From an uncultured Gammaproteobacteria bacterium (lineage in GTDB: Bacteria; Patescibacteriota; Microgenomatia; UBA10105; UBA927), in assembly GCA_964358845.1 (NCBI GenBank), contig CAYHQC010000001.1, positions 1 through 47,396 on the forward strand: DNA of 47,396 nucleotides. The letters run 5' to 3'. A model generated the notes under the pieces. The model did no database searches. It saw only the letters and a program-made list of their open reading frames with translations, and was not told where the DNA came from. Made by a program: the position numbers and the translations under genes. Below, piece by piece: positions 4,126 to 47,396 of the stretch. Position 1 is the first letter of the stretch. Every line of letters starts with the position of its first letter.

Positions 4126-5123
4126 ACATCACGGTTTTATACAATAAGCCCACGGCACGATTTATCAAAAATGCGACATTCATGCAGGCAGAGGAAGACA
4201 CCGAAGAATCGGCCCGAGAAGTGGCGGAAGCGCTCAAGGAAAAAGGAGCTAAGCCTACATTGGTCGCTTTAACAGAAAATACCATTGAATCAGTTATTTC
4301 TTCCTTACCTTTTGATTTGATATTTAATCTTATCGAATGGACCGGTGTAGATACGCCGTATGCTATAAAAACATATGATGCGATGAACGCTCGCGGATTT
4401 TACTACACAGGGGCTACTCTAGAGACATATTTGTTATCGTGTGATAAGTCGATGATGAAAAAGCACTTAGACGAAGCTTCCCTGCCTACTGCGCGTTGGC
4501 AATTATTTTTAAGCGGCAATGAACACGTACGAACAGATTTTCATTATCCCTTGATTGTAAAAGTAAGCAGCGAACATTCAAGTGTCGGATTGTCAAAAGA
4601 AGCGATCGTAAACGACGTAAAAAGCTTGATACCTATTGTCAAAAAAAGACTTGCTGAATACCAGCAACCTGTGTACGCAGAAGAGTTTTTATCAGGGCGT
4701 GAATTTCAGGTGACACTGTTAGAAAGGTCATCAGGACTGACTGTTTTTCCGATATCCGAAGTGCGCTACACCAATGGCACGGATGTACCGTTTTTGACCT
4801 ATGCCAGCCGTTGGAACGCAAATCACAGGGACTATCAAAATTCTGATGTGATTTTAGCTAAACTAACAAAAGAGCTTCAAGAAAAAATTGAAGAGATGAG
4901 TAAAACTGCATTTACGACATTTGGCTATCGAGATTATGCACGGTTTGATATCCGTTGCCAAAACAAAGAGCCTCTTTTTTTGGAAATAAATTCAAATCCC
5001 GGGTTAAGCGATGATGCAGAGTATGGCATGACCGTTTCGTATAAAGCGCTCGGGTTGACGTTTGCTGATTTTGTGTGGGAAATAGTCGAGTCCGCACTTA
5101 GGCCTCATCCGATAATAACTTGA
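4122..5123 (+). CDS. ATP-grasp ligase (D-Ala-D-Ala ligase / RimK-like family)
   Basis: ATGA start/stop overlap with the upstream gene. Ddl-like layout with DKSMMKKHL, YPLIVKVSSEHSSVGLS and FLEINSNPGL. Confidence 0.65.
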   Translation: MNITVLYNKPTARFIKNATFMQAEEDTEESAREVAEALKEKGAKPTLVALTENTIESVISSLPFDLIFNLIEWTGVDTPYAIKTYDAMNARGFYYTGATLETYLLSCDKSMMKKHLDEASLPTARWQLFLSGNEHVRTDFHYPLIVKVSSEHSSVGLSKEAIVNDVKSLIPIVKKRLAEYQQPVYAEEFLSGREFQVTLLERSSGLTVFPISEVRYTNGTDVPFLTYASRWNANHRDYQNSDVILAKLTKELQEKIEEMSKTAFTTFGYRDYARFDIRCQNKEPLFLEINSNPGLSDDAEYGMTVSYKALGLTFADFVWEIVESALRPHPIIT

Positions 5124-5163
5124 ATGTATCGGTGCGGCACAAAGGGCCGTAGCGAACGAGCCC

Positions 5164-5769
5164 TTAGACGGAATCAGATGGCGTGAAGATGTGCGCTGTA
5201 CTGATGCGGAATTTTGGTAATGCATCTTCTGTTTTTGCGATAATTAAGAGAAGTTGTGGTTGCCAACTTTTCACGAGTCGGAATTTTTTTCCTCTTTTGT
5301 GCAGTTTTCTGCGTTTGAAATCATAGTCAAACCAGCGTGTGCGAAAGTCGGCCCAGTTGTAGGATTTGCGTTTGCCAGACGCACTATCCAAAAGCACGAT
5401 GCGACTTTTGGCGGATAAATAGGATGCGACCACTGCCCAATGTCCAGATTCTATATGGGGCTCATCTTTTTCATTGAGATCATAAAGATAGGAGACAAGT
5501 GCGGCGCGTGGCGATGCTGGTGGATACTTTAGACTGCTTTGTAAATGGCGAAGTGTCGCATTTTCGACGGCCATGACAGAGAGTCCTAATTTCGTAATGG
5601 CAGTGATCATATTTTTGGTCGATGTACCATTTCTGCTAGTTTTGCAAAGTTCTATAAGAGATGAAAGTGATTTGCGAATGCCCAAGACATTGAGTGCATG
5701 TTTAATTGACGCTGGTCCACACGTCGTGTCATCAGGTTGCATGATTGGCTTCACGTGTTTTCTTCCCAT
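5164..5769 (-). CDS. Papain-like cysteine peptidase, C39-like domain
   Basis: N-terminal QPDDTTCGPASIKHAL (Q...C nucleophile motif) and downstream GHWAVV (catalytic His). Confidence 0.55.
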   Translation of the reverse strand: MGRKHVKPIMQPDDTTCGPASIKHALNVLGIRKSLSSLIELCKTSRNGTSTKNMITAITKLGLSVMAVENATLRHLQSSLKYPPASPRAALVSYLYDLNEKDEPHIESGHWAVVASYLSAKSRIVLLDSASGKRKSYNWADFRTRWFDYDFKRRKLHKRGKKFRLVKSWQPQLLLIIAKTEDALPKFRISTAHIFTPSDSV

Positions 5770-23835: not shown

Positions 23836-24510
23836 TTATGATTCATCTATGGCTACATGTCTTATAAAAGCTAATTCTTTTTGGTAGTCTGCTTGGTCAA
23901 ATGTGAATGATTTAAATGACTCAAGCGTTTTAAAAAAACTTAGAATTTTATTTGTATTGCAATATATATTTCTGTCATTGAGGTATTCTGAGAGAGATGA
24001 CCATTTATATTGAATAAGATCTTCTATTTCTTTTATCATGTATGCTGTGAACGGATTTAGATGAATATATCGCAAGATATGTAATAATTGCTCGTCTGAT
24101 TCTATTCGAATTGCTTTGAACGAGCCTTGGAAAAGGGGCCCTATGCGTTCATTTTTTGTATTGAAATATTTTGTGTAACTATCTTGGGATTTTTTCATAA
24201 ACATTGAGATACCGCCGTCACTCACCTGTTCGAGAAGAAGGTGATAGTGATTGGGCATTAGAACAAATCCAAGAAGTTTGACATCCAGAGGTTGGAGAAG
24301 TTGAGCTTGTTGTATTTGTGCACGATCTTCTAAATTTAGCTTGAGAAAGTTGGTGTATTTAAAGGGTTGTTGTGTGGTCCGATAATATGTAAGCACATCA
24401 AGGAATCGTTTTCGGGAACGATCGTCAGAAAAAATATCACGTTTTTCAACTCCACGATTAAAAATATGGTAAACCTGATTTGTAATAAGAGGTATTAGTC
24501 GGTATGGCAT
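23836..24510 (-). CDS. IS200-like / REP-associated tyrosine transposase (RAYT), HUH Y1 family
   Basis: LMPNHYHLLLEQ (HUH) and RYIHLNPF (catalytic Tyr motif). Bracketed by REP-A copies. Confidence 0.8.
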   Translation of the reverse strand: MPYRLIPLITNQVYHIFNRGVEKRDIFSDDRSRKRFLDVLTYYRTTQQPFKYTNFLKLNLEDRAQIQQAQLLQPLDVKLLGFVLMPNHYHLLLEQVSDGGISMFMKKSQDSYTKYFNTKNERIGPLFQGSFKAIRIESDEQLLHILRYIHLNPFTAYMIKEIEDLIQYKWSSLSEYLNDRNIYCNTNKILSFFKTLESFKSFTFDQADYQKELAFIRHVAIDES

Positions 24511-27458: not shown

Positions 27459-28148
27459 TTATTCATCAGTATCTACATCTATAGCGAGGTGTTCAATTTT
27501 TGCAAATTGATGTTTATATCCAACCTGATCATGAGTGAATGATCTCAAAGAATTAATAGTATGAAACTGACTTTTTACAAAATGTGTGTCACAAATGGAC
27601 TCAGAATGTTCAAGCAGATATTCAGGTAATGACGTCCATGGATATGTGTCAAGTTCTTCTTCCTTTATTATCAATCCAACGACAGGGTTAATGTGTGTAT
27701 ATCGAATGACGTGGAGCAATTGTTCGTCTGTTTCTATGTGTACGGCCTTAAATGGGTGCTGCCAAAGTGATCCGGTGCGTTTGTGCCGAATATTAAAGTA
27801 TTTTGCGAAGCTGTTTGAAATATTTGAAAGAAACGTTGTCACACCGTTATCTTTCATTTGTTTGAGAGTAAAATGAAAGTGATTTGGCATGAGCGAGAAA
27901 GCGTATAAGGACACTTCCATGTCCCCTTTTTGTTCAAGTCGGTCCATGACGTTTTTTTGTACATCAACAGATAATGACGAGTATTGCGAATATCGCATGG
28001 GAAGGTGAGCAAAACGATAGAAGCGGATGAGGTCTTTCATATGTTGATATTCACGCTTAGAGGTAAAGACAGGACGTCGTTCAACACTACGATTGAATAC
28101 GTGATAGGTTTCATCAGTAGAGAGGATGAGACTTCGGACATTCGCCAT
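27459..28148 (-). CDS. IS200-like / REP-associated tyrosine transposase (RAYT), second paralog
   Basis: LMPNHFHFTLKQ (HUH), RYTHINPV (Tyr motif). Same domain order as 23836-24510. Confidence 0.8.
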   Translation of the reverse strand: MANVRSLILSTDETYHVFNRSVERRPVFTSKREYQHMKDLIRFYRFAHLPMRYSQYSSLSVDVQKNVMDRLEQKGDMEVSLYAFSLMPNHFHFTLKQMKDNGVTTFLSNISNSFAKYFNIRHKRTGSLWQHPFKAVHIETDEQLLHVIRYTHINPVVGLIIKEEELDTYPWTSLPEYLLEHSESICDTHFVKSQFHTINSLRSFTHDQVGYKHQFAKIEHLAIDVDTDE

Positions 28149-43074: not shown

Positions 43075-44271
43075 TCATTGTAGTTTGATTGAGACAAATT
43101 TTTTCTTCCCTATTCTGACCATACTGCCATCTATGACCACTGATGATGCGGTGGCTTCTTCATTATCAATTTCTATTGCCTTTTGGTCAAGCAGGCGTTT
43201 GACCTCGGATTTGCTCGAAACAGTTCCGCTTGAGACTAGTACATCAATAATATTAAGAGATGCTATTGGATCCACGGATACTTGTTGTGCATCATCGGCT
43301 GTTGCAGCATTTCCTTTTTGGTGTATTGATTCAAACGCAACTTGCGCTTTTTCTGCATTTGCTTCGGAGTTAAATGCTCTGGTAAGTTCAAATGCTAATC
43401 TTTTTTTCCAAACCATCGGATTATCCCCTGCTTTCATTTTGTCTTTCATGGTTTCAATCTCATTCATCGGCATATCAGTAAGAAGCGTAAAACACGGAAT
43501 AATCGCATCATCTCCTAATGACATGATTTTGCCATAGAAATCCGTTGGTTCATCAGTAAGCCCAATAACATTGTTTTCAGTTTTTCCAATTTTAACTCCC
43601 TTAGCATCAGCAAGAAGCGGCACGGTCATGACAAATTTTTCTTTATTCAGCATGTTTTTCACAAGCGTTCTGCCCGCCAACATATTAAATGTTTGATCAC
43701 TGCCTCCGAGTTCTAGATTTACTTGCATAGCGACAGAATCGTATCCCTGAAGCAGCGGATATAAGAATTCCCGAAGGTTAATTGGGTCTCCTGCTTTCAT
43801 ACGAACCTGATACATATCGCGCTCTATCATTTGTTGTACGGTGAAGTTTTGTGCGATGTTTAGCATATCTTCAAGTTTTAATTTCGTCAGCCAGTCGCCG
43901 TTGTAGAGAATTTCTACTGGATTTTCTCCTTCAAAACGGACGATTTTAGAAGCCTGCAGTAAGTATGCTTTCGCATTATCGCGCAATTCTTCACCGGACA
44001 TAAATTTTCCACGAGCTTTCATTTTACCGGATGGATCACCCGCAAGTCCTGTACCATCACCGACTAAAAATATTACTTTGTGTCCTAAATCTTGCCACTG
44101 ACGTAATTTTCGAAATCCCACGGCATGTCCGATATGAAGTTGTGTTCCCGTCGGATCAAACCCTTGGTAGAGTTTTAACTTTTTTCCACTGCGAAGTACT
44201 GTCTCCAATGCTTCTTTGGTAGGATATATCGTATCAACTCCACGTGTAAGTAATACATCGATCTCATCCAT
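43075..44271 (-). CDS. tyrS: Tyrosyl-tRNA synthetase, full length with C-terminal S4-like domain
   Basis: GFDPTGTQLHIGHAV (HIGH), GDGTGLAGDPSGK, ELGGSDQTFN, KIGKTE (KFGKT-type KMSKS), C-terminal SKSEVKRLLDQKAIEID. Confidence 0.92.
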   Translation of the reverse strand: MDEIDVLLTRGVDTIYPTKEALETVLRSGKKLKLYQGFDPTGTQLHIGHAVGFRKLRQWQDLGHKVIFLVGDGTGLAGDPSGKMKARGKFMSGEELRDNAKAYLLQASKIVRFEGENPVEILYNGDWLTKLKLEDMLNIAQNFTVQQMIERDMYQVRMKAGDPINLREFLYPLLQGYDSVAMQVNLELGGSDQTFNMLAGRTLVKNMLNKEKFVMTVPLLADAKGVKIGKTENNVIGLTDEPTDFYGKIMSLGDDAIIPCFTLLTDMPMNEIETMKDKMKAGDNPMVWKKRLAFELTRAFNSEANAEKAQVAFESIHQKGNAATADDAQQVSVDPIASLNIIDVLVSSGTVSSKSEVKRLLDQKAIEIDNEEATASSVVIDGSMVRIGKKKFVSIKLQ

Positions 44272-44285
44272 ATAGATATTTTACA

Positions 44286-45236
44286 CTATATCATATTTTT
44301 GAGTTGAGGATGCCCGTTTATAAACATTGTTTCAGCCAACATAGCTTTTTGCATTCCGTGAACATCAGAAACTATGATACGTGCCAATAGTCGTTTGGCC
44401 GTCAACGGATGCAGTGTATTGATGACACCATCATCCGTTGTTGTACACAGCTTAAAGAATATTGCGATATCTGTATCATGGATTTTCATAATTTTATTAA
44501 ACTGTGTAGCAGGATCCTCTTCCATGCCGATGAAGTTGTCGGCGCTTTTGCTCATTTTTTCTGCTCCATCAGTGCCAGGTAAGTACTCAAGAAGCAGCGC
44601 CTCCTCTGGGGGAAGGCCGAATTTTTCCATGACCTGACGAGTCATAAGAAAATTAAATTTCTGATCAGGACCACCAAGCTCAATGTCTGCTTTGATCGCT
44701 ACACTGTCAAACGCCATAAGGAGCGTGTAGAACATTTCGTGGAATCCTAATGGTTTTCCAAGTTTTTCGCGCATGCGAAACGTTTCATGCCGCATGAGTT
44801 GTTCTTTTGTAACCGTTGCCATTAATCGGATAGTTTGTTCAAGTGTGAGTGTGTTGTACCATTCGCTTTGAAAATGTACTTCAGTTTTTTCTATATCAAT
44901 GAATTTGGCAGCAAAACTTGTGAACCGCTTCGCATTTTCTTGTGTTTGAGCAAGAGTGAGCATATTTCGCGTATCACTTTTTCCTACAGGATCCCCAATT
45001 TGCGCAGTGAAATCTCCGATGATAAATACGGCAGTGTGACCCATATTTTGAAATTCACGCAATTTTCGAAGTGGCACGGTATGCCCCAAGTGAAAAGATG
45101 TCGCCGTTGGATCTATACCATATTTGATTCGAAGTGGTGTGTTGGCTGATAGCTTCTTTATCATTTCGTTTTTTTCAATAACCTCACACACACCATGAGT
45201 CAGTAATTTGTTAATAGCGTCAGTTTGATTGTTCAT
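44286..45236 (-). CDS. TyrRS paralog: catalytic core with intact HLGH and KMSKS, no C-terminal S4 domain
   Basis: YGIDPTATSFHLGHTV, IIGDFTAQIGDPVGKS, ELGGPDQKFN, KMSKS. 316 aa versus 398 aa for the neighbouring tyrS. Confidence 0.8.
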   Translation of the reverse strand: MNNQTDAINKLLTHGVCEVIEKNEMIKKLSANTPLRIKYGIDPTATSFHLGHTVPLRKLREFQNMGHTAVFIIGDFTAQIGDPVGKSDTRNMLTLAQTQENAKRFTSFAAKFIDIEKTEVHFQSEWYNTLTLEQTIRLMATVTKEQLMRHETFRMREKLGKPLGFHEMFYTLLMAFDSVAIKADIELGGPDQKFNFLMTRQVMEKFGLPPEEALLLEYLPGTDGAEKMSKSADNFIGMEEDPATQFNKIMKIHDTDIAIFFKLCTTTDDGVINTLHPLTAKRLLARIIVSDVHGMQKAMLAETMFINGHPQLKNMI

Positions 45237-45237
45237 A

Positions 45238-46125
45238 TTACCTCCTTTTGAAAATAGTATTTATAATGTGTTGAGCTTTATTTGGAATTGAACGTGATGA
45301 TATGGATCCACATTGTTTTTCAAATGCGCGGGCAATTGTCGCGATATGTTTTGTGGTACCACCGAAATGTGGATCATTCCAGCCGCATAACGCTCGCGCA
45401 AACTTTTCTAAAGCGTTTTCGTGCGGATCTAAGAGCAATCGCGTCTCACCATCGATTGAAATGTATGGTGATACTTTTTGTCGATGTTTATCAAAGGTGC
45501 GTCCAGACTTCGTATGCAAAAATGCTACTGGTATCGCTATATGTTTTTTGAGCTCTGTGTCGAAAAAACGTTCATCATGACCAGACGGCTCAGGAGAACT
45601 ATCAATAGTCCAGCCAAGTTTTATGCCAAGATTATGATGTTCTTTGAGCCATAAAATATCTGCAAGCTCATGTCGTAAGTACTGATTGTCCATAGCGGGA
45701 AGTGATGTAAGTATATTTTGAAAAGATGGATTGGATGATATCGTCGAATGAACAATAATTCGAAAATTTACTAAATGTAACGTATGGATAATTTTGTTAC
45801 ATAATTGCTTCGTGCGATCGGTAAGGTTTATTATTAGTTCTTCGGACATAAATGAGTTTGTGCGTGCGTGTGAATCTGCAATAAGAATAATGACTTCGGA
45901 TAAGCCAAAAAATTGTTTCAGCCTTTCTGCGATGAGAAAGAAGCTTAGAATATCAAATGGTATAGCTATTGCGGGTTTTTTATCAGTGCATAGTCCTACA
46001 CCAAAAAATATGCTTTTTTTTTGAAATGTTGAGGCATCAAACGTATTGAGCGCCACGCAACAAGACGCCGCTTCCAAGAGTGGTTCATTGTGTATGAACG
46101 TATGTACTTCATGTTGTGTAATCAT
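45238..46125 (-). CDS. Hypothetical protein (paralog B), possibly a divergent class Ic aaRS-like Rossmann fold lacking HIGH and KMSKS
   Basis: Start reset to ATG 46125 because the ORF-track extension runs through the tRNA. Shares FFGVG, ILIADSHA, GIKLGW, HDERFFD and SPYI with ORF 46220-47080. Confidence 0.6.
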   Translation of the reverse strand: MITQHEVHTFIHNEPLLEAASCCVALNTFDASTFQKKSIFFGVGLCTDKKPAIAIPFDILSFFLIAERLKQFFGLSEVIILIADSHARTNSFMSEELIINLTDRTKQLCNKIIHTLHLVNFRIIVHSTISSNPSFQNILTSLPAMDNQYLRHELADILWLKEHHNLGIKLGWTIDSSPEPSGHDERFFDTELKKHIAIPVAFLHTKSGRTFDKHRQKVSPYISIDGETRLLLDPHENALEKFARALCGWNDPHFGGTTKHIATIARAFEKQCGSISSRSIPNKAQHIINTIFKRR

Positions 46126-46126
46126 A

Positions 46127-46216
46127 GGTGCGGAGAGAGGGATTTGAACCCCCGAAGCGTCTTTTGAACGCAACAGATTTACAGTCTGTTCCAATTAGCC
46201 TCTCTGGCATCTCCGC
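46127..46216 (-). tRNA. tRNA-Tyr (anticodon GTA), bacterial class II type with long variable arm
   Basis: Hand-folded. 7-bp acceptor GCGGAGA/TCTCCGC, anticodon arm ACAGA-CTGTAAA-TCTGT, variable arm GCGT-loop-ACGC, T arm GGGGG-TTCAAAT-CCCTC, discriminator A, G1:C72. Genomic CC follows but the final A is not encoded. Confidence 0.9.
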
Positions 46217-46219
46217 ATA

Positions 46220-47080
46220 TTATTTCGCACATGCATCTACAATTTTTTGAATTTGCTTGAACGGATCAACTCCTCTTGGTGACCTCCCTTCTAATCGCGA
46301 CACGCTATTTCCTAGATTTACGAGTAGATTATGAAAATCATTTCCCATTGCGATTTCTTTTAATCTTTTTCGTACATCAGGAATTGCTTGGCCTAATGCA
46401 AAGTCCGGCGACCCAATGTATGGGGGAGCGAGATGGTGATTACCAAGAATGTCCTTGGTAGTTTTCATCCCTTCAAGGGTGCGTATGAAACCCATATGTT
46501 TTTTCAGATTGGGATTATCGTTTCTTGCGAACTGATCGAAATCTCTTTCATCCCATCGCAAGGGACCGATAATTGGTTTTTTCCGTGACTGCCAGCCGAC
46601 TTTGACTCCCACTTTGAGCACCGTTCGTGCATGTTCCATGTCATCGGCTTCCATTTCTGGATAGCTTGTCCGTGCGCTCATTTGCCACTGTGATGCATTT
46701 GATGACTGGATGATACGTATATCCGGCTCACCTAATGCTGAAAATAGTTTTTGTATGACCTCTGTAGCTTTATTGGCACTTTTTCTAATATTTTCTGTTT
46801 GACAGATATCATTGGCAAATCGCACTGCATGACCGTCTGCAATTAATACATTAATTTTTGAAGAAGCTCCTTGATGTTGTGCAGTCCGCGCAGTTTCGAT
46901 CGCTGTGACGGCCATGCCAATGACTCCAATGCCTATATCTGTGTTTACCATCCCTTTACGTTGTGCAACACCGATGCCCATAAAAACATTCGTGCCCTCA
47001 CCCTCTCCTTGCGGTGGTTGGATAGCAGCAATGATATTTCTATGCTTCTTTTCTACTTCGTGTAATATTTCTCTAATCAT
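46220..47080 (-). CDS. Hypothetical protein (paralog A of 45238-46125), possibly class Ic aaRS-like
   Basis: FMGIGV, NVLIADGHAV, GVKVGW, WDERDFD and APPYI are collinear with paralog B. The stop lies 3 nt before the tRNA 5' end. Confidence 0.6.
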   Translation of the reverse strand: MIREILHEVEKKHRNIIAAIQPPQGEGEGTNVFMGIGVAQRKGMVNTDIGIGVIGMAVTAIETARTAQHQGASSKINVLIADGHAVRFANDICQTENIRKSANKATEVIQKLFSALGEPDIRIIQSSNASQWQMSARTSYPEMEADDMEHARTVLKVGVKVGWQSRKKPIIGPLRWDERDFDQFARNDNPNLKKHMGFIRTLEGMKTTKDILGNHHLAPPYIGSPDFALGQAIPDVRKRLKEIAMGNDFHNLLVNLGNSVSRLEGRSPRGVDPFKQIQKIVDACAK

Positions 47081-47082
47081 AT

Positions 47083-47289
47083 TTAACCCTCCGAAAAATC
47101 ATCATGCCATTTTCTGCGAACGGCACTTTTTGGATCTGTATCTGGTATTTTTTTAGTTTCATCCTTTTCTATTTTTGGCTTCTCAACCATAAATACACTT
47201 GTCCCCAAAGACGGTGGCATGATATTGCCTTGCATGTCTCGAAGGTTTTCGCGTATAAATTCTAATGTTCCCTTAATTTTTTCTAACAT
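47083..47289 (-). CDS. Small 68-aa ORF, first cistron after the T-box leader
   Basis: AGGAGG at 47301-47306 (minus strand), 11 nt before the ATG at 47289. Its stop is 2 nt before the start of paralog A. No recognisable motif. Confidence 0.45.
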   Translation of the reverse strand: MLEKIKGTLEFIRENLRDMQGNIMPPSLGTSVFMVEKPKIEKDETKKIPDTDPKSAVRRKWHDDFSEG

Positions 47290-47311
47290 AATAATTTTCA
47301 CCTCCTTTCAA

Positions 47312-47369
47312 ACAAAAAAACGCCCGTGCAAGTCGCCCAGAAAATTTCTGAGTAACCTGCAAGGGCGTT
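47312..47369 (-). terminator. Intrinsic terminator of the T-box leader
   Basis: Minus strand: AACGCCCTTGCAGG, loop, CTTGCACGGGCGTT, then TTTTTTT. About 13 bp of stem with one mismatch. Confidence 0.75.
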
Positions 47370-47396
47370 CGATAAAGAACACGGTACCACCTTGTT
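47312..47396 (-). promoter_or_regulatory. T-box riboswitch, 3' portion only (T-box sequence, antiterminator, terminator); the specifier loop lies beyond the window edge
   Basis: Minus strand AACAAGGUGGUACCGUG matches the conserved T-box motif. The antiterminator folds as CAAGG, 7-nt bulge UGGUACC, GUGUUC, UUUAUC, GAACGC, CCUUG. Its 3' arm is shared with the terminator 5' arm. Confidence 0.8.

What the first reader, a model, noticed from the sequence alone, without database searches (positions are those of the whole stretch)
46127..46216. tRNA-Tyr embedded inside a protein-coding operon with 1-3-nt spacers on both sides
The paralog A stop (46220-46222) lies 3 nt from tRNA position 1 (46216). 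The paralog B start codon (46125) lies 1-3 nt after the tRNA 3' end, depending on whether the genomic CC is counted. There is no room for a separate promoter or terminator, so the tRNA should be excised from the polycistronic mRNA by RNase P and a 3' processing enzyme. That processing would cut the message between the two paralogs and place tRNA-Tyr output under the T-box that senses uncharged tRNA, a possible feedback loop. The ORF-track N-terminal extension of paralog B (to 46194) is an artefact of reading through the tRNA.
Basis: partly seen in the sequence, partly recalled or inferred. Interest (0 to 1): 0.65.

Follow-up and report, generated by a model that had tools for sequence, protein, structure and literature searches.

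The report
Riboswitch-controlled tRNA-Tyr abutting a start codon
A real tyrosine tRNA gene sits inside an operon controlled by a tyrosine-tRNA-sensing riboswitch in an uncultured groundwater bacterium, 2-3 bases before the next gene's start codon, so the riboswitch probably controls its own ligand and cutting out the tRNA probably frees a nearly leaderless message.

Summary
ARAGORN and Rfam both call a bacterial-type tRNA-Tyr(GUA) at 46129-46216 (-). It starts 3 nt after the stop of paralog A. Its discriminator base lies 3 nt (CCT) before the ATG of paralog B.

The organism is a Candidatus Gottesmanbacteria-like (CPR) bacterium. In about 40 related loci the conserved unit is: Tyr T-box leader (specifier UAC), then tRNA-Tyr, then paralog B, then tyrS, then recG.

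- In 16 listed loci only the T-box terminator separates the riboswitch from tRNA position 1.
- In about 24 distinct loci the ATG follows the discriminator by exactly 2-3 nt and no Shine-Dalgarno (SD) sequence is present.
- Three loci in which the tRNA is 12 nt, 15 nt or 3.3 kb from the ATG carry an SD.
- The tRNA shows strong compensatory covariation.

Paralogs A and B are predicted TyrRS-fold proteins without a HIGH motif. Relatives of B occur fused to TyrRS.

Best explanation: T-box-gated co-transcription, then excision of the tRNA by RNase P and a 3' endonuclease. This resembles mitochondrial tRNA punctuation and would yield tRNA-Tyr plus a near-leaderless paralog-B mRNA. Processing itself is inferred, not shown. 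I found no published T-box that governs its own tRNA gene.

The parts
47358..47396 (-). 3' part of a T-box leader (T-box sequence AAGGUGGUACCGUG with antiterminator), cut off by the end of the window
   Evidence: Rfam RF00230, model positions 183-219, 19.2 bits, E=0.03, truncated at its 5' side. An identical sequence in the same-species contig L018 is part of a full T-box (1662-1955, 77.2 bits, E=3.7e-16, specifier UAC).
47311..47370 (-). T-box terminator hairpin (47318-47370) followed by a U7 run (47311-47317)
   Evidence: RNA fold gives -33.5 kcal/mol, z = -5.7, with 0 of 200 shuffles as stable. Its 5' arm overlaps the 3' side of the antiterminator.
47083..47289 (-). Small ORF (68 aa from the ATG at 47289) with a strong SD (AGGAGG); function unknown
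   Evidence: ORF list. Called as a 68-aa gene on contigs L019 and L020. SD duplex energy -11.1. Small ORFs with a similar C-terminal motif (..SEFxEG) occupy the same position in L001, L003 and L050.
46220..47080 (-). Paralog A, 286 aa: a divergent TyrRS-fold protein and a lineage-specific duplicate of paralog B. Its stop codon lies 3 nt before tRNA +1
   Evidence: BLASTP against B gives E=3e-9. No Pfam hit. Weak hit to archaeal-type TyrRS NF006330. Essentially an orphan in the 5.8-billion-protein search. AF2 model pLDDT 71. Top Foldseek hits are archaeal and eukaryal TyrRS, E=2e-7.
46127..46216 (-). tRNA-Tyr (GUA), bacterial class II type: G1-C72, A73 at 46129, long variable arm. C74 and C75 are encoded (46128-46127); A76 is not
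   Evidence: ARAGORN. Rfam at 54.7 bits. Covariation across 17 orthologous copies. The cloverleaf forms within the precursor context.
45238..46125 (-). Paralog B, 295 aa: a conserved TyrRS-fold protein without a HIGH motif. Its ATG lies 3 nt after the tRNA discriminator and it has no SD
   Evidence: 56 homologues, named only in Cand. Gottesmanbacteria. Alignment A1 starts at this ATG. AF2 pLDDT 93.6. Foldseek top hits are M. jannaschii TyrRS, E=1.6e-8, TM 0.63. SD duplex energy +1.9.
44286..45236 (-). Truncated TyrRS paralogue, 316 aa, with HLGH and KMSKS intact but no C-terminal S4-like tRNA-binding domain; strong SD
   Evidence: Pfam PF00579 E=5.5e-62 and TIGR00234 covering positions 3-316 of 406. 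Sequence. SD energy -12.2. Present only in loci with the window-type tRNA (WIN, L001, L003, L006).
44285..44293 (-). Extended -10-like element TGATATAGT, ending 13 nt before the ATG of full-length tyrS; a putative internal promoter
   Evidence: TGnTATAGT lies at the same place in 7 of 17 loci (WIN, L001, L002, L003, L005, L010, L015), and TGCTATACT lies there in L008. This is a motif match only.
43075..44271 (-). Full-length bacterial TyrRS, 398 aa, with a C-terminal S4-like domain
   Evidence: TIGR00234 E=2.7e-99 over its full length. PF00579, plus weaker, below-cut-off matches to S4 (E=0.0021) and SYY C-terminal (E=0.00073) domains.

Best explanation
The tRNA-Tyr gene is a functional tRNA gene transcribed as part of a Tyr-specific T-box-controlled operon. 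When uncharged tRNA-Tyr stabilises the antiterminator, RNA polymerase reads through the terminator into the operon. In this genome it passes the small ORF and paralog A first. In most relatives it runs directly into the tRNA.

RNase P then cuts at G1. A 3' endonuclease (RNase Z or similar) cuts at or just after the discriminator or the encoded C residues. The CCA-adding enzyme completes the 3' end.

Excision does three things:
1. It releases tRNA-Tyr, so the riboswitch gates production of its own ligand together with TyrRS-fold proteins.
2. It severs the structured leader, and here the paralog A message, from the downstream message.
3. It leaves the paralog B mRNA with an AUG 0-3 nt from a new 5' end. 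That is a near-leaderless mRNA, which explains why paralog B has no Shine-Dalgarno sequence.

This is the bacterial equivalent of mitochondrial tRNA punctuation.

Shown: the gene order, the spacers, the T-box specificity, the authenticity of the tRNA, the conservation, and the absence of an SD. Inferred: co-transcription, the cleavage sites, and leaderless translation.

Paralogs A and B are degenerate TyrRS-fold proteins that probably act with TyrRS or tRNA-Tyr. Their biochemical role is unknown.
For: The tRNA is real. Across 17 copies 96.6% of stem cells pair, 17 of 21 pairs show double compensatory changes, and 0 of 500 shuffles reach this.

The junction coordinates were read directly.

The T-box is Tyr-specific. 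The specifier is UAC in all six alignments inspected, and the UGGU bulge matches A73. A T-box lies upstream of the tRNA in 11 loci by Rfam.

The T-box motif lies 122 nt or less from tRNA +1, with only the terminator and U-run between them, in 16 listed loci, a few of which may be near-duplicates. This leaves no room for a separate promoter.

tRNA-Tyr lies directly upstream of paralog B in 14 of 15 genome loci and 21 of 23 metagenome loci. The spacer from A73 to the ATG is 3 nt in about 15 distinct loci and 2 nt in about 9. Among 14 inspected homologues of about 320 aa, roughly ten carry an in-frame translated tRNA directly before the Met.

Every one of the 37 parB starts found next to a tRNA is ATG, duplicate loci included.

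Paralog B never has an SD where the tRNA abuts it (duplex energy between -1.5 and +1.9). Internal cistrons of the same operon do have one (ORF68 -11.1, paralog A -10.0, short TyrRS -12.2). Three exceptions with the tRNA further away carry an SD: L044 'caaaggagaaat', L049 'caaagaaaggaaatt', and L004 (-6.4).

The lineage appears to use leaderless starts. recG has TATAAT followed by 6 nt and then ATG in 4 loci, and only 8 of 42 window genes have an SD.

No promoter or terminator is predicted at the tRNA flanks.
Against: No transcript data exist. Co-transcription, RNase P and RNase Z cleavage, and translation of a processed mRNA are all inferences.

In this window 1.1 kb and two ORFs separate the T-box from the tRNA, so an internal promoter inside paralog A cannot be excluded from sequence alone.

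Lack of an SD is common in this genome (34 of 42 genes), so on its own it is weak evidence.

Several loci have 15-74-nt spacers without a clear SD (L031, L003, L050, L013, L001). The simple leaderless model does not explain these.

C74 and C75 next to the discriminator can inhibit RNase Z in B. subtilis (my own recollection of the literature), so the 3' cut site is uncertain.

If this is the only tRNA-Tyr gene, T-box control gives positive feedback and would need basal read-through. The copy number of tRNA-Tyr in the genome could not be determined.
Confidence: 0.68

Rival explanations
1. Paralog B is translated from the unprocessed polycistronic RNA by SD-independent internal initiation, for example A/U-rich or S1-dependent. 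The tRNA is excised only from a fraction of transcripts, or destructively, so that a given transcript yields either a tRNA or a paralog B message. The tight spacing reflects genome compaction, not a mechanism that creates a 5' end.
For: Most genes in the window lack an SD (34 of 42), so SD-independent initiation is general here. Loci with 15-74-nt SD-less spacers exist. CC after the discriminator may disfavour a clean RNase Z cut (recollection of the literature).
Against: The AUG sits 2-3 nt from a very stable acceptor stem. In the precursor fold it is partly paired, which is unfavourable for internal 30S binding. Other internal cistrons of the same operon have strong SDs. The spacer is held at exactly 2-3 nt in about 24 distinct loci at 37-55% protein identity. 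An SD appears in three loci where the tRNA is further away (L044, L049, L004).
Confidence: 0.13
2. The tRNA sequence also, or instead, acts in cis as a 5'-UTR operator. The TyrRS-fold proteins (paralog B or TyrRS) would bind the tRNA-Tyr moiety next to the start codon and repress translation, as E. coli ThrRS does at its tRNA-like operator.
For: The encoded proteins have a TyrRS fold. The tRNA abuts the AUG. Relatives of B are fused to or adjacent to TyrRS, Dtd and tRNA-Tyr.
Against: The element keeps all features of a complete, decodable tRNA, including the T-loop, D-loop and anticodon loop, whereas known operators mimic only an arm. A T-box already provides regulation. Such a complete pre-tRNA is expected to be a substrate for RNase P. 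No separate tRNA-Tyr gene was seen in most of the fetched regions, although whole genomes could not be scanned.
Confidence: 0.1
3. The tRNA has its own promoter. The adjacency to the T-box operon is a by-product of a small, compact genome, or of the tRNA serving as an old integration site next to which paralog B was inserted.
For: tRNA genes are common integration sites. The window contains an integrase and IS200-like genes elsewhere. A weak -35/-10 match (9 of 12) exists at 46818-46790 inside paralog A.
Against: In 16 loci the T-box terminator's U-run ends 0-15 nt before tRNA +1, with no promoter-like hexamers placed to start at or before G1. The promoter scan is below random expectation. Synteny of T-box, tRNA, parB, tyrS and recG holds across about 40 loci. 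No integrase or repeats lie at the locus.
Confidence: 0.07

Closest known systems
Mitochondrial tRNA punctuation (Ojala, Montoya and Attardi model; animal mtDNA)
   Same: tRNA genes are butt-jointed to coding sequences with 0-3-nt spacers, there are no intervening promoters, and RNase P and RNase Z excision is proposed to release the tRNA together with leaderless mRNAs lacking an SD.
   Different: Here it occurs in a free-living-type bacterial chromosome, at a single locus and not genome-wide. It lies downstream of a riboswitch, and the punctuating tRNA is the riboswitch's own ligand. Processing has not been demonstrated.
T-box riboswitch upstream of tyrS (Bacillus subtilis tyrS; Rfam RF00230)
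   Same: Stem I has a UAC specifier, the T-box sequence has a UGGN bulge matching the discriminator, and alternative antiterminator and terminator structures are followed by a U-run. A TyrRS gene lies in the regulated operon.
   Different: The first regulated product is the cognate tRNA gene itself, followed by a TyrRS-fold protein of unknown function. tyrS comes later and seems to have its own promoter. The phylum is CPR/Patescibacteria. Rfam scores are mostly below the gathering threshold (67-87 bits against 93), and 3 loci are above it.
Bacterial tRNA-mRNA co-transcripts (E. coli thrU-tyrU-glyT-thrT-tufB operon; tyrT-tpr)
   Same: tRNA genes and a protein-coding gene share one promoter, and the tRNAs are excised by RNase P and 3' processing.
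   Different: To my recollection, those operons have longer spacers and an SD for the downstream ORF, they encode CCA, and no riboswitch controls them. They do not place the start codon 2-3 nt from the tRNA.
pylT-pylS gene cluster (tRNA-Pyl next to its dedicated synthetase)
   Same: A tRNA gene is clustered and co-expressed with its cognate class of synthetase proteins.
   Different: The pyl cluster encodes an orthogonal pair for a 22nd amino acid and has no T-box. Here the tRNA looks like the standard bacterial tRNA-Tyr.
Degenerate TyrRS paralogues and pseudo-subunits (Leishmania double-length pseudo-dimeric TyrRS, PDB 3P0J) and cyclodipeptide synthases
   Same: Paralogs A and B have the class Ic Rossmann fold with a C-terminal helical domain and lack HIGH. 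Relatives occur fused to an intact TyrRS, as in a pseudo-dimer.
   Different: There is no Pfam tRNA-synt_1b or CDPS match. These are separate polypeptides in this genome. No CDPS appears among the top 50 structural hits. Activity is unknown.
E. coli thrS translational operator (a tRNA-like mimic bound by ThrRS)
   Same: A tRNA-shaped RNA lies immediately upstream of the start codon of a synthetase-family gene.
   Different: The operator is a partial mimic that is not processed into a tRNA. Here the element is a complete tRNA gene with full covariation.

Membership tests
tRNA (Rfam RF00005), bacterial class II tRNA-Tyr | Cloverleaf with four helices that scores above the family threshold | tested here: met
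   54.7 bits against a gathering score of 29. ARAGORN calls it. 96.6% of cells pair across 17 orthologues and 17 of 21 pairs covary.
tRNA (Rfam RF00005), bacterial class II tRNA-Tyr | Anticodon GUA, long variable arm, G1-C72 and discriminator A73 (bacterial TyrRS identity set) | tested here: met
   Read from the sequence and from alignment A2. The variable stem-loop is GCGUUCAAAAGACGC.
tRNA (Rfam RF00005), bacterial class II tRNA-Tyr | Is expressed, matured, given CCA and aminoacylated with tyrosine | not testable with these tools
   No RNA or biochemical data. CCA is not encoded (CCT), so a CCA-adding enzyme would be required.
T-box leader (Rfam RF00230) | Conserved T-box sequence with a UGGN bulge complementary to the tRNA discriminator, within an antiterminator | tested here: met
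   AAGGUGGUACCGUG at 47380-47393. N = U pairs with A73.
T-box leader (Rfam RF00230) | Stem I specifier loop presenting the cognate codon | tested here: met
   It lies outside the window. It is present in the same-species contig L018 (GAAAUACC, i.e. UAC) and in L001, L005, L007, L008 and L011.
T-box leader (Rfam RF00230) | Competing intrinsic terminator (hairpin plus U-run) | tested here: met
   -33.5 kcal/mol hairpin at 47318-47370 followed by U7, z = -5.7.
T-box leader (Rfam RF00230) | Score at or above Rfam's gathering threshold (93 bits) | tested here: inconclusive
   The window copy is truncated (19.2 bits). L018 scores 77.2 bits, E=3.7e-16. L008, L001 and L002 score 119.9, 107.2 and 95.4 bits. 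Seven other loci score 67-87 bits.
tRNA-punctuated polycistronic transcript (mitochondrial type) | tRNA directly flanked by coding sequence, without its own promoter or terminator | tested here: met
   Spacers are 3 nt on each side. No convincing promoter or terminator was found. The T-box terminator abuts the tRNA in 16 loci.
tRNA-punctuated polycistronic transcript (mitochondrial type) | The downstream mRNA lacks an SD and starts at or next to the processing site | tested here: met
   There is no SD before paralog B in any locus where the tRNA abuts it. The spacer is 2-3 nt in about 24 distinct loci.
tRNA-punctuated polycistronic transcript (mitochondrial type) | Cleavage by RNase P and RNase Z demonstrated on the transcript | not testable with these tools
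   This needs RNA-end mapping or in vitro cleavage.
Class Ic aminoacyl-tRNA synthetase (TyrRS; Pfam PF00579), for paralogs A and B | Rossmann-fold catalytic domain with TyrRS topology | tested here: met
   Foldseek of the paralog B model (pLDDT 93.6) against M. jannaschii TyrRS gives E=1.6e-8, TM 0.63. The paralog A model (pLDDT 71) against A. fulgidus and human TyrRS gives E=2e-7.
Class Ic aminoacyl-tRNA synthetase (TyrRS; Pfam PF00579), for paralogs A and B | HIGH and KMSKS signature motifs | tested here: not met
   An invariant PFDI(L) stands where I place HIGH by position upstream of ADSHA; the hhalign alignment does not cover that region. KMSKS aligns with QKVSPY.
Class Ic aminoacyl-tRNA synthetase (TyrRS; Pfam PF00579), for paralogs A and B | Sequence-profile membership (Pfam or NCBIfam) | tested here: not met
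   No Pfam hit at E of 0.1 or better. Only a sub-threshold NF006330 hit for A at 16 bits against a cut-off of 220. hhalign against MjTyrRS gives probability 22%.
Cyclodipeptide synthase (CDPS) | Pfam CDPS profile match, or CDPS as the closest structure | tested here: not met
   No Pfam hit. The top 50 Foldseek hits for both models are TyrRS or TrpRS, and none is a CDPS.

The most novel reading that the evidence does not exclude
In Gottesmanbacteria-like CPR bacteria a T-box riboswitch directly gates transcription of its own ligand. The tRNA-Tyr gene forms the entire spacer between the riboswitch terminator and the next ORF, and its excision is required to create the leaderless mRNA of a TyrRS pseudo-subunit (paralog B) that works with TyrRS. 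One transcript would therefore deliver the tRNA and its protein partner in fixed proportion. This would be a self-contained, autoregulated tyrosine-charging module and the first bacterial case of functional tRNA punctuation. In the window's sub-lineage the module has been duplicated, giving a second TyrRS-fold paralog, a second tRNA type and a TyrRS without its C-terminal domain. That may form a heteromeric or specialised TyrRS-tRNA pair.
Probability: 0.45. Interest if true: 0.82.

Novelty: new variant of a known kind. Interest (0 to 1): 0.7.

Why it matters
T-box riboswitches are known to control synthetases, biosynthetic genes and transporters. I found no report of one controlling the gene of the tRNA it senses. 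Such wiring gives a ligand-producing feedback loop whose dynamics differ from the classical negative loop: positive feedback on the tRNA, offset by co-induced charging capacity.

The start codon is held exactly 2-3 nt from the tRNA across dozens of diverged genomes. This suggests that bacteria can use tRNA excision to make leaderless mRNAs, a mechanism so far considered a hallmark of mitochondria. The idea can be tested directly with a short in vitro transcript or a reporter.

The analysis also brings to light a large uncharacterised family of TyrRS-fold proteins: 534 clusters at 50% identity, some fused to TyrRS and some next to Dtd. This family is tied to tRNA-Tyr metabolism in organisms with minimal genomes.

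Practically, gene callers extend paralog B through the tRNA in many public contigs (the roughly 320-aa proteins), and that is an annotation error worth correcting.

Tried and rejected
1. Cyclodipeptide-synthase idea for paralogs A and B (TyrRS-like fold using Tyr-tRNA). Rejected as a membership claim: no Pfam CDPS hit, and all top 50 structural matches are TyrRS or TrpRS. In addition, a T-box induces on uncharged tRNA, which fits a consumer of Tyr-tRNA poorly.

2. Sequence-only searches for A and B against Pfam, NCBIfam and PDB gave nothing significant. Only structure prediction revealed the fold.

3. Reading paralog B from the TTG at 46194. Rejected: homologues align from the ATG. The apparently conserved extension MEQTVNLL..GVQIPLSAP is the translated tRNA. 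Loci with 2-nt spacers put the tRNA out of frame.

4. Independent promoter for the tRNA. The consensus scan found fewer sites than the shuffles did. The only nearby match (46148-46121) lies inside the tRNA T-loop and the start codon, and would initiate inside the ORF.

5. Homologue search for paralog A found only itself, so its distribution had to be inferred from tblastn and ORF inspection.

6. Counting tRNA-Tyr genes per genome was not possible.

7. Nine literature searches found no description of a T-box upstream of a tRNA gene, of T-boxes in CPR, or of tRNA-generated leaderless mRNAs in bacteria. The two transcriptome papers I read describe cuts between the two C residues of CCA, but not this arrangement.

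8. The hhalign comparison with M. jannaschii TyrRS was weak (probability 22%). I use it only to place motifs. That sequence was recalled from memory and then verified against PDB entries 1J1U and 1U7D.
Full report
OBSERVATION

ARAGORN finds one tRNA in the whole 47.4-kb window: tRNA-Tyr (GTA) at 46127..46216 on the minus strand. Rfam's tRNA model matches 46129..46216 at 54.7 bits, E=3.8e-9.

Reading the minus strand directly gives the following positions:
- Paralog A ends with TAA at 46222-46220.
- TAT (46219-46217) follows.
- The tRNA starts at G1 = 46216 and ends with discriminator A73 = 46129.
- Next come C, C, T (46128-46126), then the ATG of paralog B at 46125-46123.

CCA is not encoded.

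ANATOMY OF THE OPERON (all on the minus strand)

1. The window begins inside a T-box leader. The T-box sequence AAGGUGGUACCGUG and its antiterminator lie at 47358-47396 (Rfam RF00230, truncated, E=0.03).
2. A terminator hairpin of -33.5 kcal/mol (z = -5.7) and a U7 run follow.
3. A contig of the same species (L018; paralog A 100% identical) carries the whole leader. It scores 77.2 bits, E=3.7e-16, and has a UAC (Tyr) specifier. Genes on the opposite strand lie upstream of it.
4. Downstream come a 68-aa ORF with a strong SD, then paralog A (286 aa, strong SD), then the tRNA, then paralog B (295 aa, no SD).
5. Next is a 316-aa TyrRS with HLGH and KMSKS but no C-terminal S4-like domain (strong SD), then a full 398-aa TyrRS, then recG.

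A and B are distant paralogues: 26% identity, E=3e-9.

The rest of the window is ordinary chromosome: gyrA and gyrB, type IV pilus genes, trmD, RNase III. The homologues of paralog B that carry a name are from Candidatus Gottesmanbacteria, in the CPR/Patescibacteria.

COMPARATIVE EVIDENCE

I fetched 17 loci from species-representative genomes and 25 from metagenomes.

The conserved core is T-box, tRNA-Tyr, paralog B, full tyrS, recG. A tRNA-Tyr lies directly upstream of paralog B in 14 of 15 genome loci and 21 of 23 metagenome loci that contain upstream DNA.

The distance from the discriminator to the ATG falls into these classes:
- 3 nt (cct or ctt) in about 15 distinct loci.
- 2 nt (ct or cc) in about 9 distinct loci.
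- 12-15 nt in three loci.
- 26-74 nt in four loci.
- Large or absent in three loci.

The base after the discriminator is C in every locus seen. In L011 the encoded CC plus the A of the ATG form an overlapping CCA.

Among 14 inspected metagenomic homologues called at about 320 aa, roughly ten begin with ...SGVQIPLSAP (or a close variant) directly followed by M. That is the tRNA's T-arm and acceptor stem translated in frame, so they have the same abutment.

A T-box precedes the tRNA in 11 loci by Rfam. Three are above the gathering score and the others have E between 1e-12 and 1e-17. UAC is the specifier in every alignment inspected.

In 16 listed loci the T-box motif is at most 122 nt from tRNA +1. 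The intervening sequence is just the terminator, and its U-run ends 0-15 nt before G1. In the typical relative, therefore, the tRNA gene forms the whole stretch between the riboswitch and the next start codon.

The window's arrangement is a derived variant found also in L003, L001 and L050, with the small ORF and paralog A inserted between the T-box and the tRNA. Paralog A is essentially an orphan.

AUTHENTICITY OF THE tRNA

Across 17 orthologous copies 96.6% of stem cells form standard pairs. 17 of 21 pairs show changes on both sides, 0 of 500 shuffles reach this, and slid controls pair at 41-54%.

The tRNA has the bacterial identity set: G1-C72, A73 and a long variable arm. The cloverleaf forms in the context of its flanks.

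The ORF extension of paralog B to the TTG at 46194 is an artefact. Homologues align from the ATG. Because spacers of 2 and 3 nt occur, the tRNA lies in different frames relative to the ORF in different species.

THE FLANKING PROTEINS

Neither paralog matches Pfam, NCBIfam or PDB sequences significantly.

The AlphaFold model of B (pLDDT 93.6) matches archaeal and eukaryal TyrRS over its full length: M. jannaschii TyrRS, E=1.6e-8, TM 0.63, about 14% identity. The model of A (pLDDT 71) does the same, E=2e-7.

Motif placement is as follows:
- ADSHA corresponds to the archaeal ADLHA.
- GHDERF corresponds to GGMEQR.
- An invariant PFDI stands where I place HIGH, judged by its position upstream of ADSHA. 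The hhalign alignment does not reach that region.
- KMSKS is degenerate (QKVSPY).

Canonical adenylation is therefore doubtful.

A profile search of 1.84 billion representatives finds 534 clusters, 403 of them at E of 1e-10 or better. These include TyrRS-parB and parB-TyrRS fusions and a GNAT-parB fusion. One member sits immediately upstream of D-Tyr-tRNA deacylase. One fusion gene lies 1.1 kb from a tRNA-Tyr. The family thus works with TyrRS and tRNA-Tyr, but its reaction is unknown.

The tRNA abutment is restricted to the Gottesmanbacteria-like clade. The more distant L023 has T-box, small ORF, parB, tyrS and recG but no tRNA. Only 3 of 45 N-terminally extended representatives show a tRNA-derived peptide.

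MECHANISM

What is shown:
- A Tyr-specific T-box with a terminator.
- A genuine tRNA-Tyr immediately downstream.
- A start codon 2-3 nt after the tRNA.
- No SD for that ORF.
- No room for a promoter in most relatives, and no promoter or terminator predicted at the flanks in the window (7 promoter-like sites against 11.7 expected).

What is inferred: uncharged tRNA-Tyr induces read-through. RNase P cuts at G1, which here also ends the paralog A message 3 nt after its stop codon. A 3' endonuclease cuts at or after A73, C74 or C75, and the CCA-adding enzyme finishes the tRNA. The downstream RNA begins 0-3 nt before the AUG and is translated as a leaderless mRNA.

Supporting correlations:
- Internal cistrons of the operon have strong SDs (-10 to -12 kcal/mol), but paralog B has none (+1.9).
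- Three loci with the tRNA 12 nt, 15 nt or 3.3 kb from the ATG carry an SD: L044 'aaggag', L049 'aaggaa', and L004.
- All 37 parB starts found next to a tRNA (duplicate loci included) are ATG.
- The lineage seems to use leaderless starts generally. recG has TATAAT, 6 nt, then ATG in four loci. tyrS has TGnTATAGT 11-13 nt before its ATG. Only 8 of 42 window genes have an SD.

Regulatory consequence: the riboswitch gates synthesis of its own ligand together with TyrRS-fold proteins. This is positive feedback on tRNA-Tyr and needs some basal read-through if this is the only tRNA-Tyr gene. I could not determine that.

Because tyrS appears to have its own promoter, the T-box may chiefly control the tRNA, paralog B and, in this genome, the paralog A and short-TyrRS module.

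RIVALS

1. SD-independent initiation on unprocessed RNA, with the tight spacing being mere compaction. Loci with 15-74-nt SD-less spacers and the general scarcity of SDs support this. The structural occlusion of the AUG, the precise 2-3-nt conservation and the SD-gain cases argue against it.
2. The tRNA acts as a cis operator for the TyrRS-fold proteins, as at thrS. This is possible as an added layer, but the element is a complete tRNA under full selection.
3. An independent tRNA promoter, or a remnant of an integration site. The T-box terminator abutting the tRNA and the conserved synteny contradict this.

COMPARISON WITH KNOWN SYSTEMS AND NOVELTY

The parts are known: T-box leaders, tRNA-mRNA co-transcripts (E. 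coli tufB and tyrT operons), mitochondrial tRNA punctuation, and degenerate synthetase paralogues.

The combination is not, as far as nine full-text searches show. Those searches found no T-box in CPR, no T-box upstream of a tRNA gene, and no bacterial leaderless mRNA made by tRNA excision.

I therefore class it as a new variant of known kinds, conserved in about 40 loci, with a directly testable mechanism.

LIMITS

There are no transcript data. The 3' cleavage site is uncertain. The copy number of tRNA-Tyr per genome is unknown. The function of paralogs A and B is unknown. The promoter statements rest on motif matches only.

Noticed in passing
window 44285-44293 (-); also L001, L002, L003, L005, L010, L015 (11-13 nt before the tyrS ATG) and L008: A conserved extended -10-like motif, TGnTATAGT, precedes full-length tyrS, partly inside the upstream gene's 3' end. 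It suggests an internal promoter giving a very short leader, so tyrS may not depend on the T-box alone.
   Followed up: partly
recG starts: L001 7152, L002 3958, L003 5487, L015 1969; window 42785: TATAAT lies exactly 6 nt before the recG ATG in four loci, which is the classic leaderless-mRNA geometry. In the window only 8 of 42 ORFs have an SD (longest-ORF starts, so this is approximate).
   Followed up: partly
L001 2433-2518 and 3805-3892; L050 988-1074 and 2385-2475: Two tRNA-Tyr genes of two distinct sequence types lie in one T-box operon: T-box, tRNA-a, small ORF, paralog-A-like, tRNA-b, paralog B. The window, L003 and L006 keep only the b type. The same four genome loci that carry the b type (window, L001, L003, L006) are the ones found with the C-terminally truncated TyrRS. 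This may be a duplicated tRNA/TyrRS module.
   Followed up: partly
L001 2859-3842 compared with L050 1413-2363: In L001 the paralog-A-like ORF has no stop before the tRNA and runs 38 nt into it, so RNase P cleavage would leave a non-stop mRNA. The close relative L050 has a stop and a 21-nt spacer. This is either a real deletion or an assembly error.
   Followed up: partly
L044 2396-2408; L049 468-482; L004 3975-3992: In these three loci, where the tRNA is not within 3 nt of paralog B, an SD-like sequence is present before the ATG (aaggag, aaggaa, tggagaag). This looks like a natural compensation experiment.
   Followed up: yes
L003 2293-2318; L013 1380-1431; L001 3893-3966; L050 2473-2500: Inserts of 26-74 nt, capable of forming hairpins, lie between the tRNA and the ATG (for example cccttc...caggg and ccacgtcaaacgtgg). 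They contain no SD. Their origin and their effect on the leaderless model are unexplained.
   Followed up: no
P0070, P0072, P0142, P0081; L025 4001-6391; L027 58-1439: The paralog B family is large (534 clusters at 50% identity) and reaches high-GC organisms. It occurs fused to TyrRS in both orders and to a GNAT (Acetyltransf_6) domain. In one contig it sits directly upstream of D-Tyr-tRNA deacylase. In L025 the fusion follows GCS2, MR_MLE and GATase genes.
   Followed up: partly
L004 5554-7422: This TyrRS ORF is 622 aa by its longest reading and carries an N-terminal extension of about 230 aa of unknown nature. A TrpR/YerC-like small ORF (4962-5495) lies between paralog B and tyrS. Two large ORFs are inserted between the tRNA and paralog B.
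   Followed up: no
L007 633-803 (-); L009 2671-2791 (-): Additional weak T-box-like matches (43 and 40 bits) lie on the opposite strand a few kb from the Tyr operon. Their targets were not examined.
   Followed up: no
window 23836-24510 (-) and 27459-28148 (-): Two IS200-like Y1 transposase genes bracket a block of prepilin peptidase and pilin-like genes inside the type IV pilus cluster.
   Followed up: no
window 47083-47289 (-); L001 2545-2856; L003 893-1198; L050 1099-1410: A small ORF always accompanies paralog A and shares a C-terminal motif (R/K-x-W/R-x...SEF-x-EG). It has no family match.
   Followed up: no
record titles of L001, L005, L007, L009, L010, L011, L012: Several MAG records carrying this CPR-type operon are titled 'uncultured Gammaproteobacteria' or 'Pseudomonadales'. 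This looks like a taxonomic mislabel of Patescibacteria bins.
   Followed up: no
public proteins P0003, P0005, P0008, P0009, P0012, P0013, P0015, P0019, P0026, P0028, P0031, P0035: Gene callers extended paralog B by about 23 codons through the tRNA gene (N-terminus MEQTVNLL...GVQIPLSAP). This is a systematic annotation error in public metagenome proteins.
   Followed up: yes
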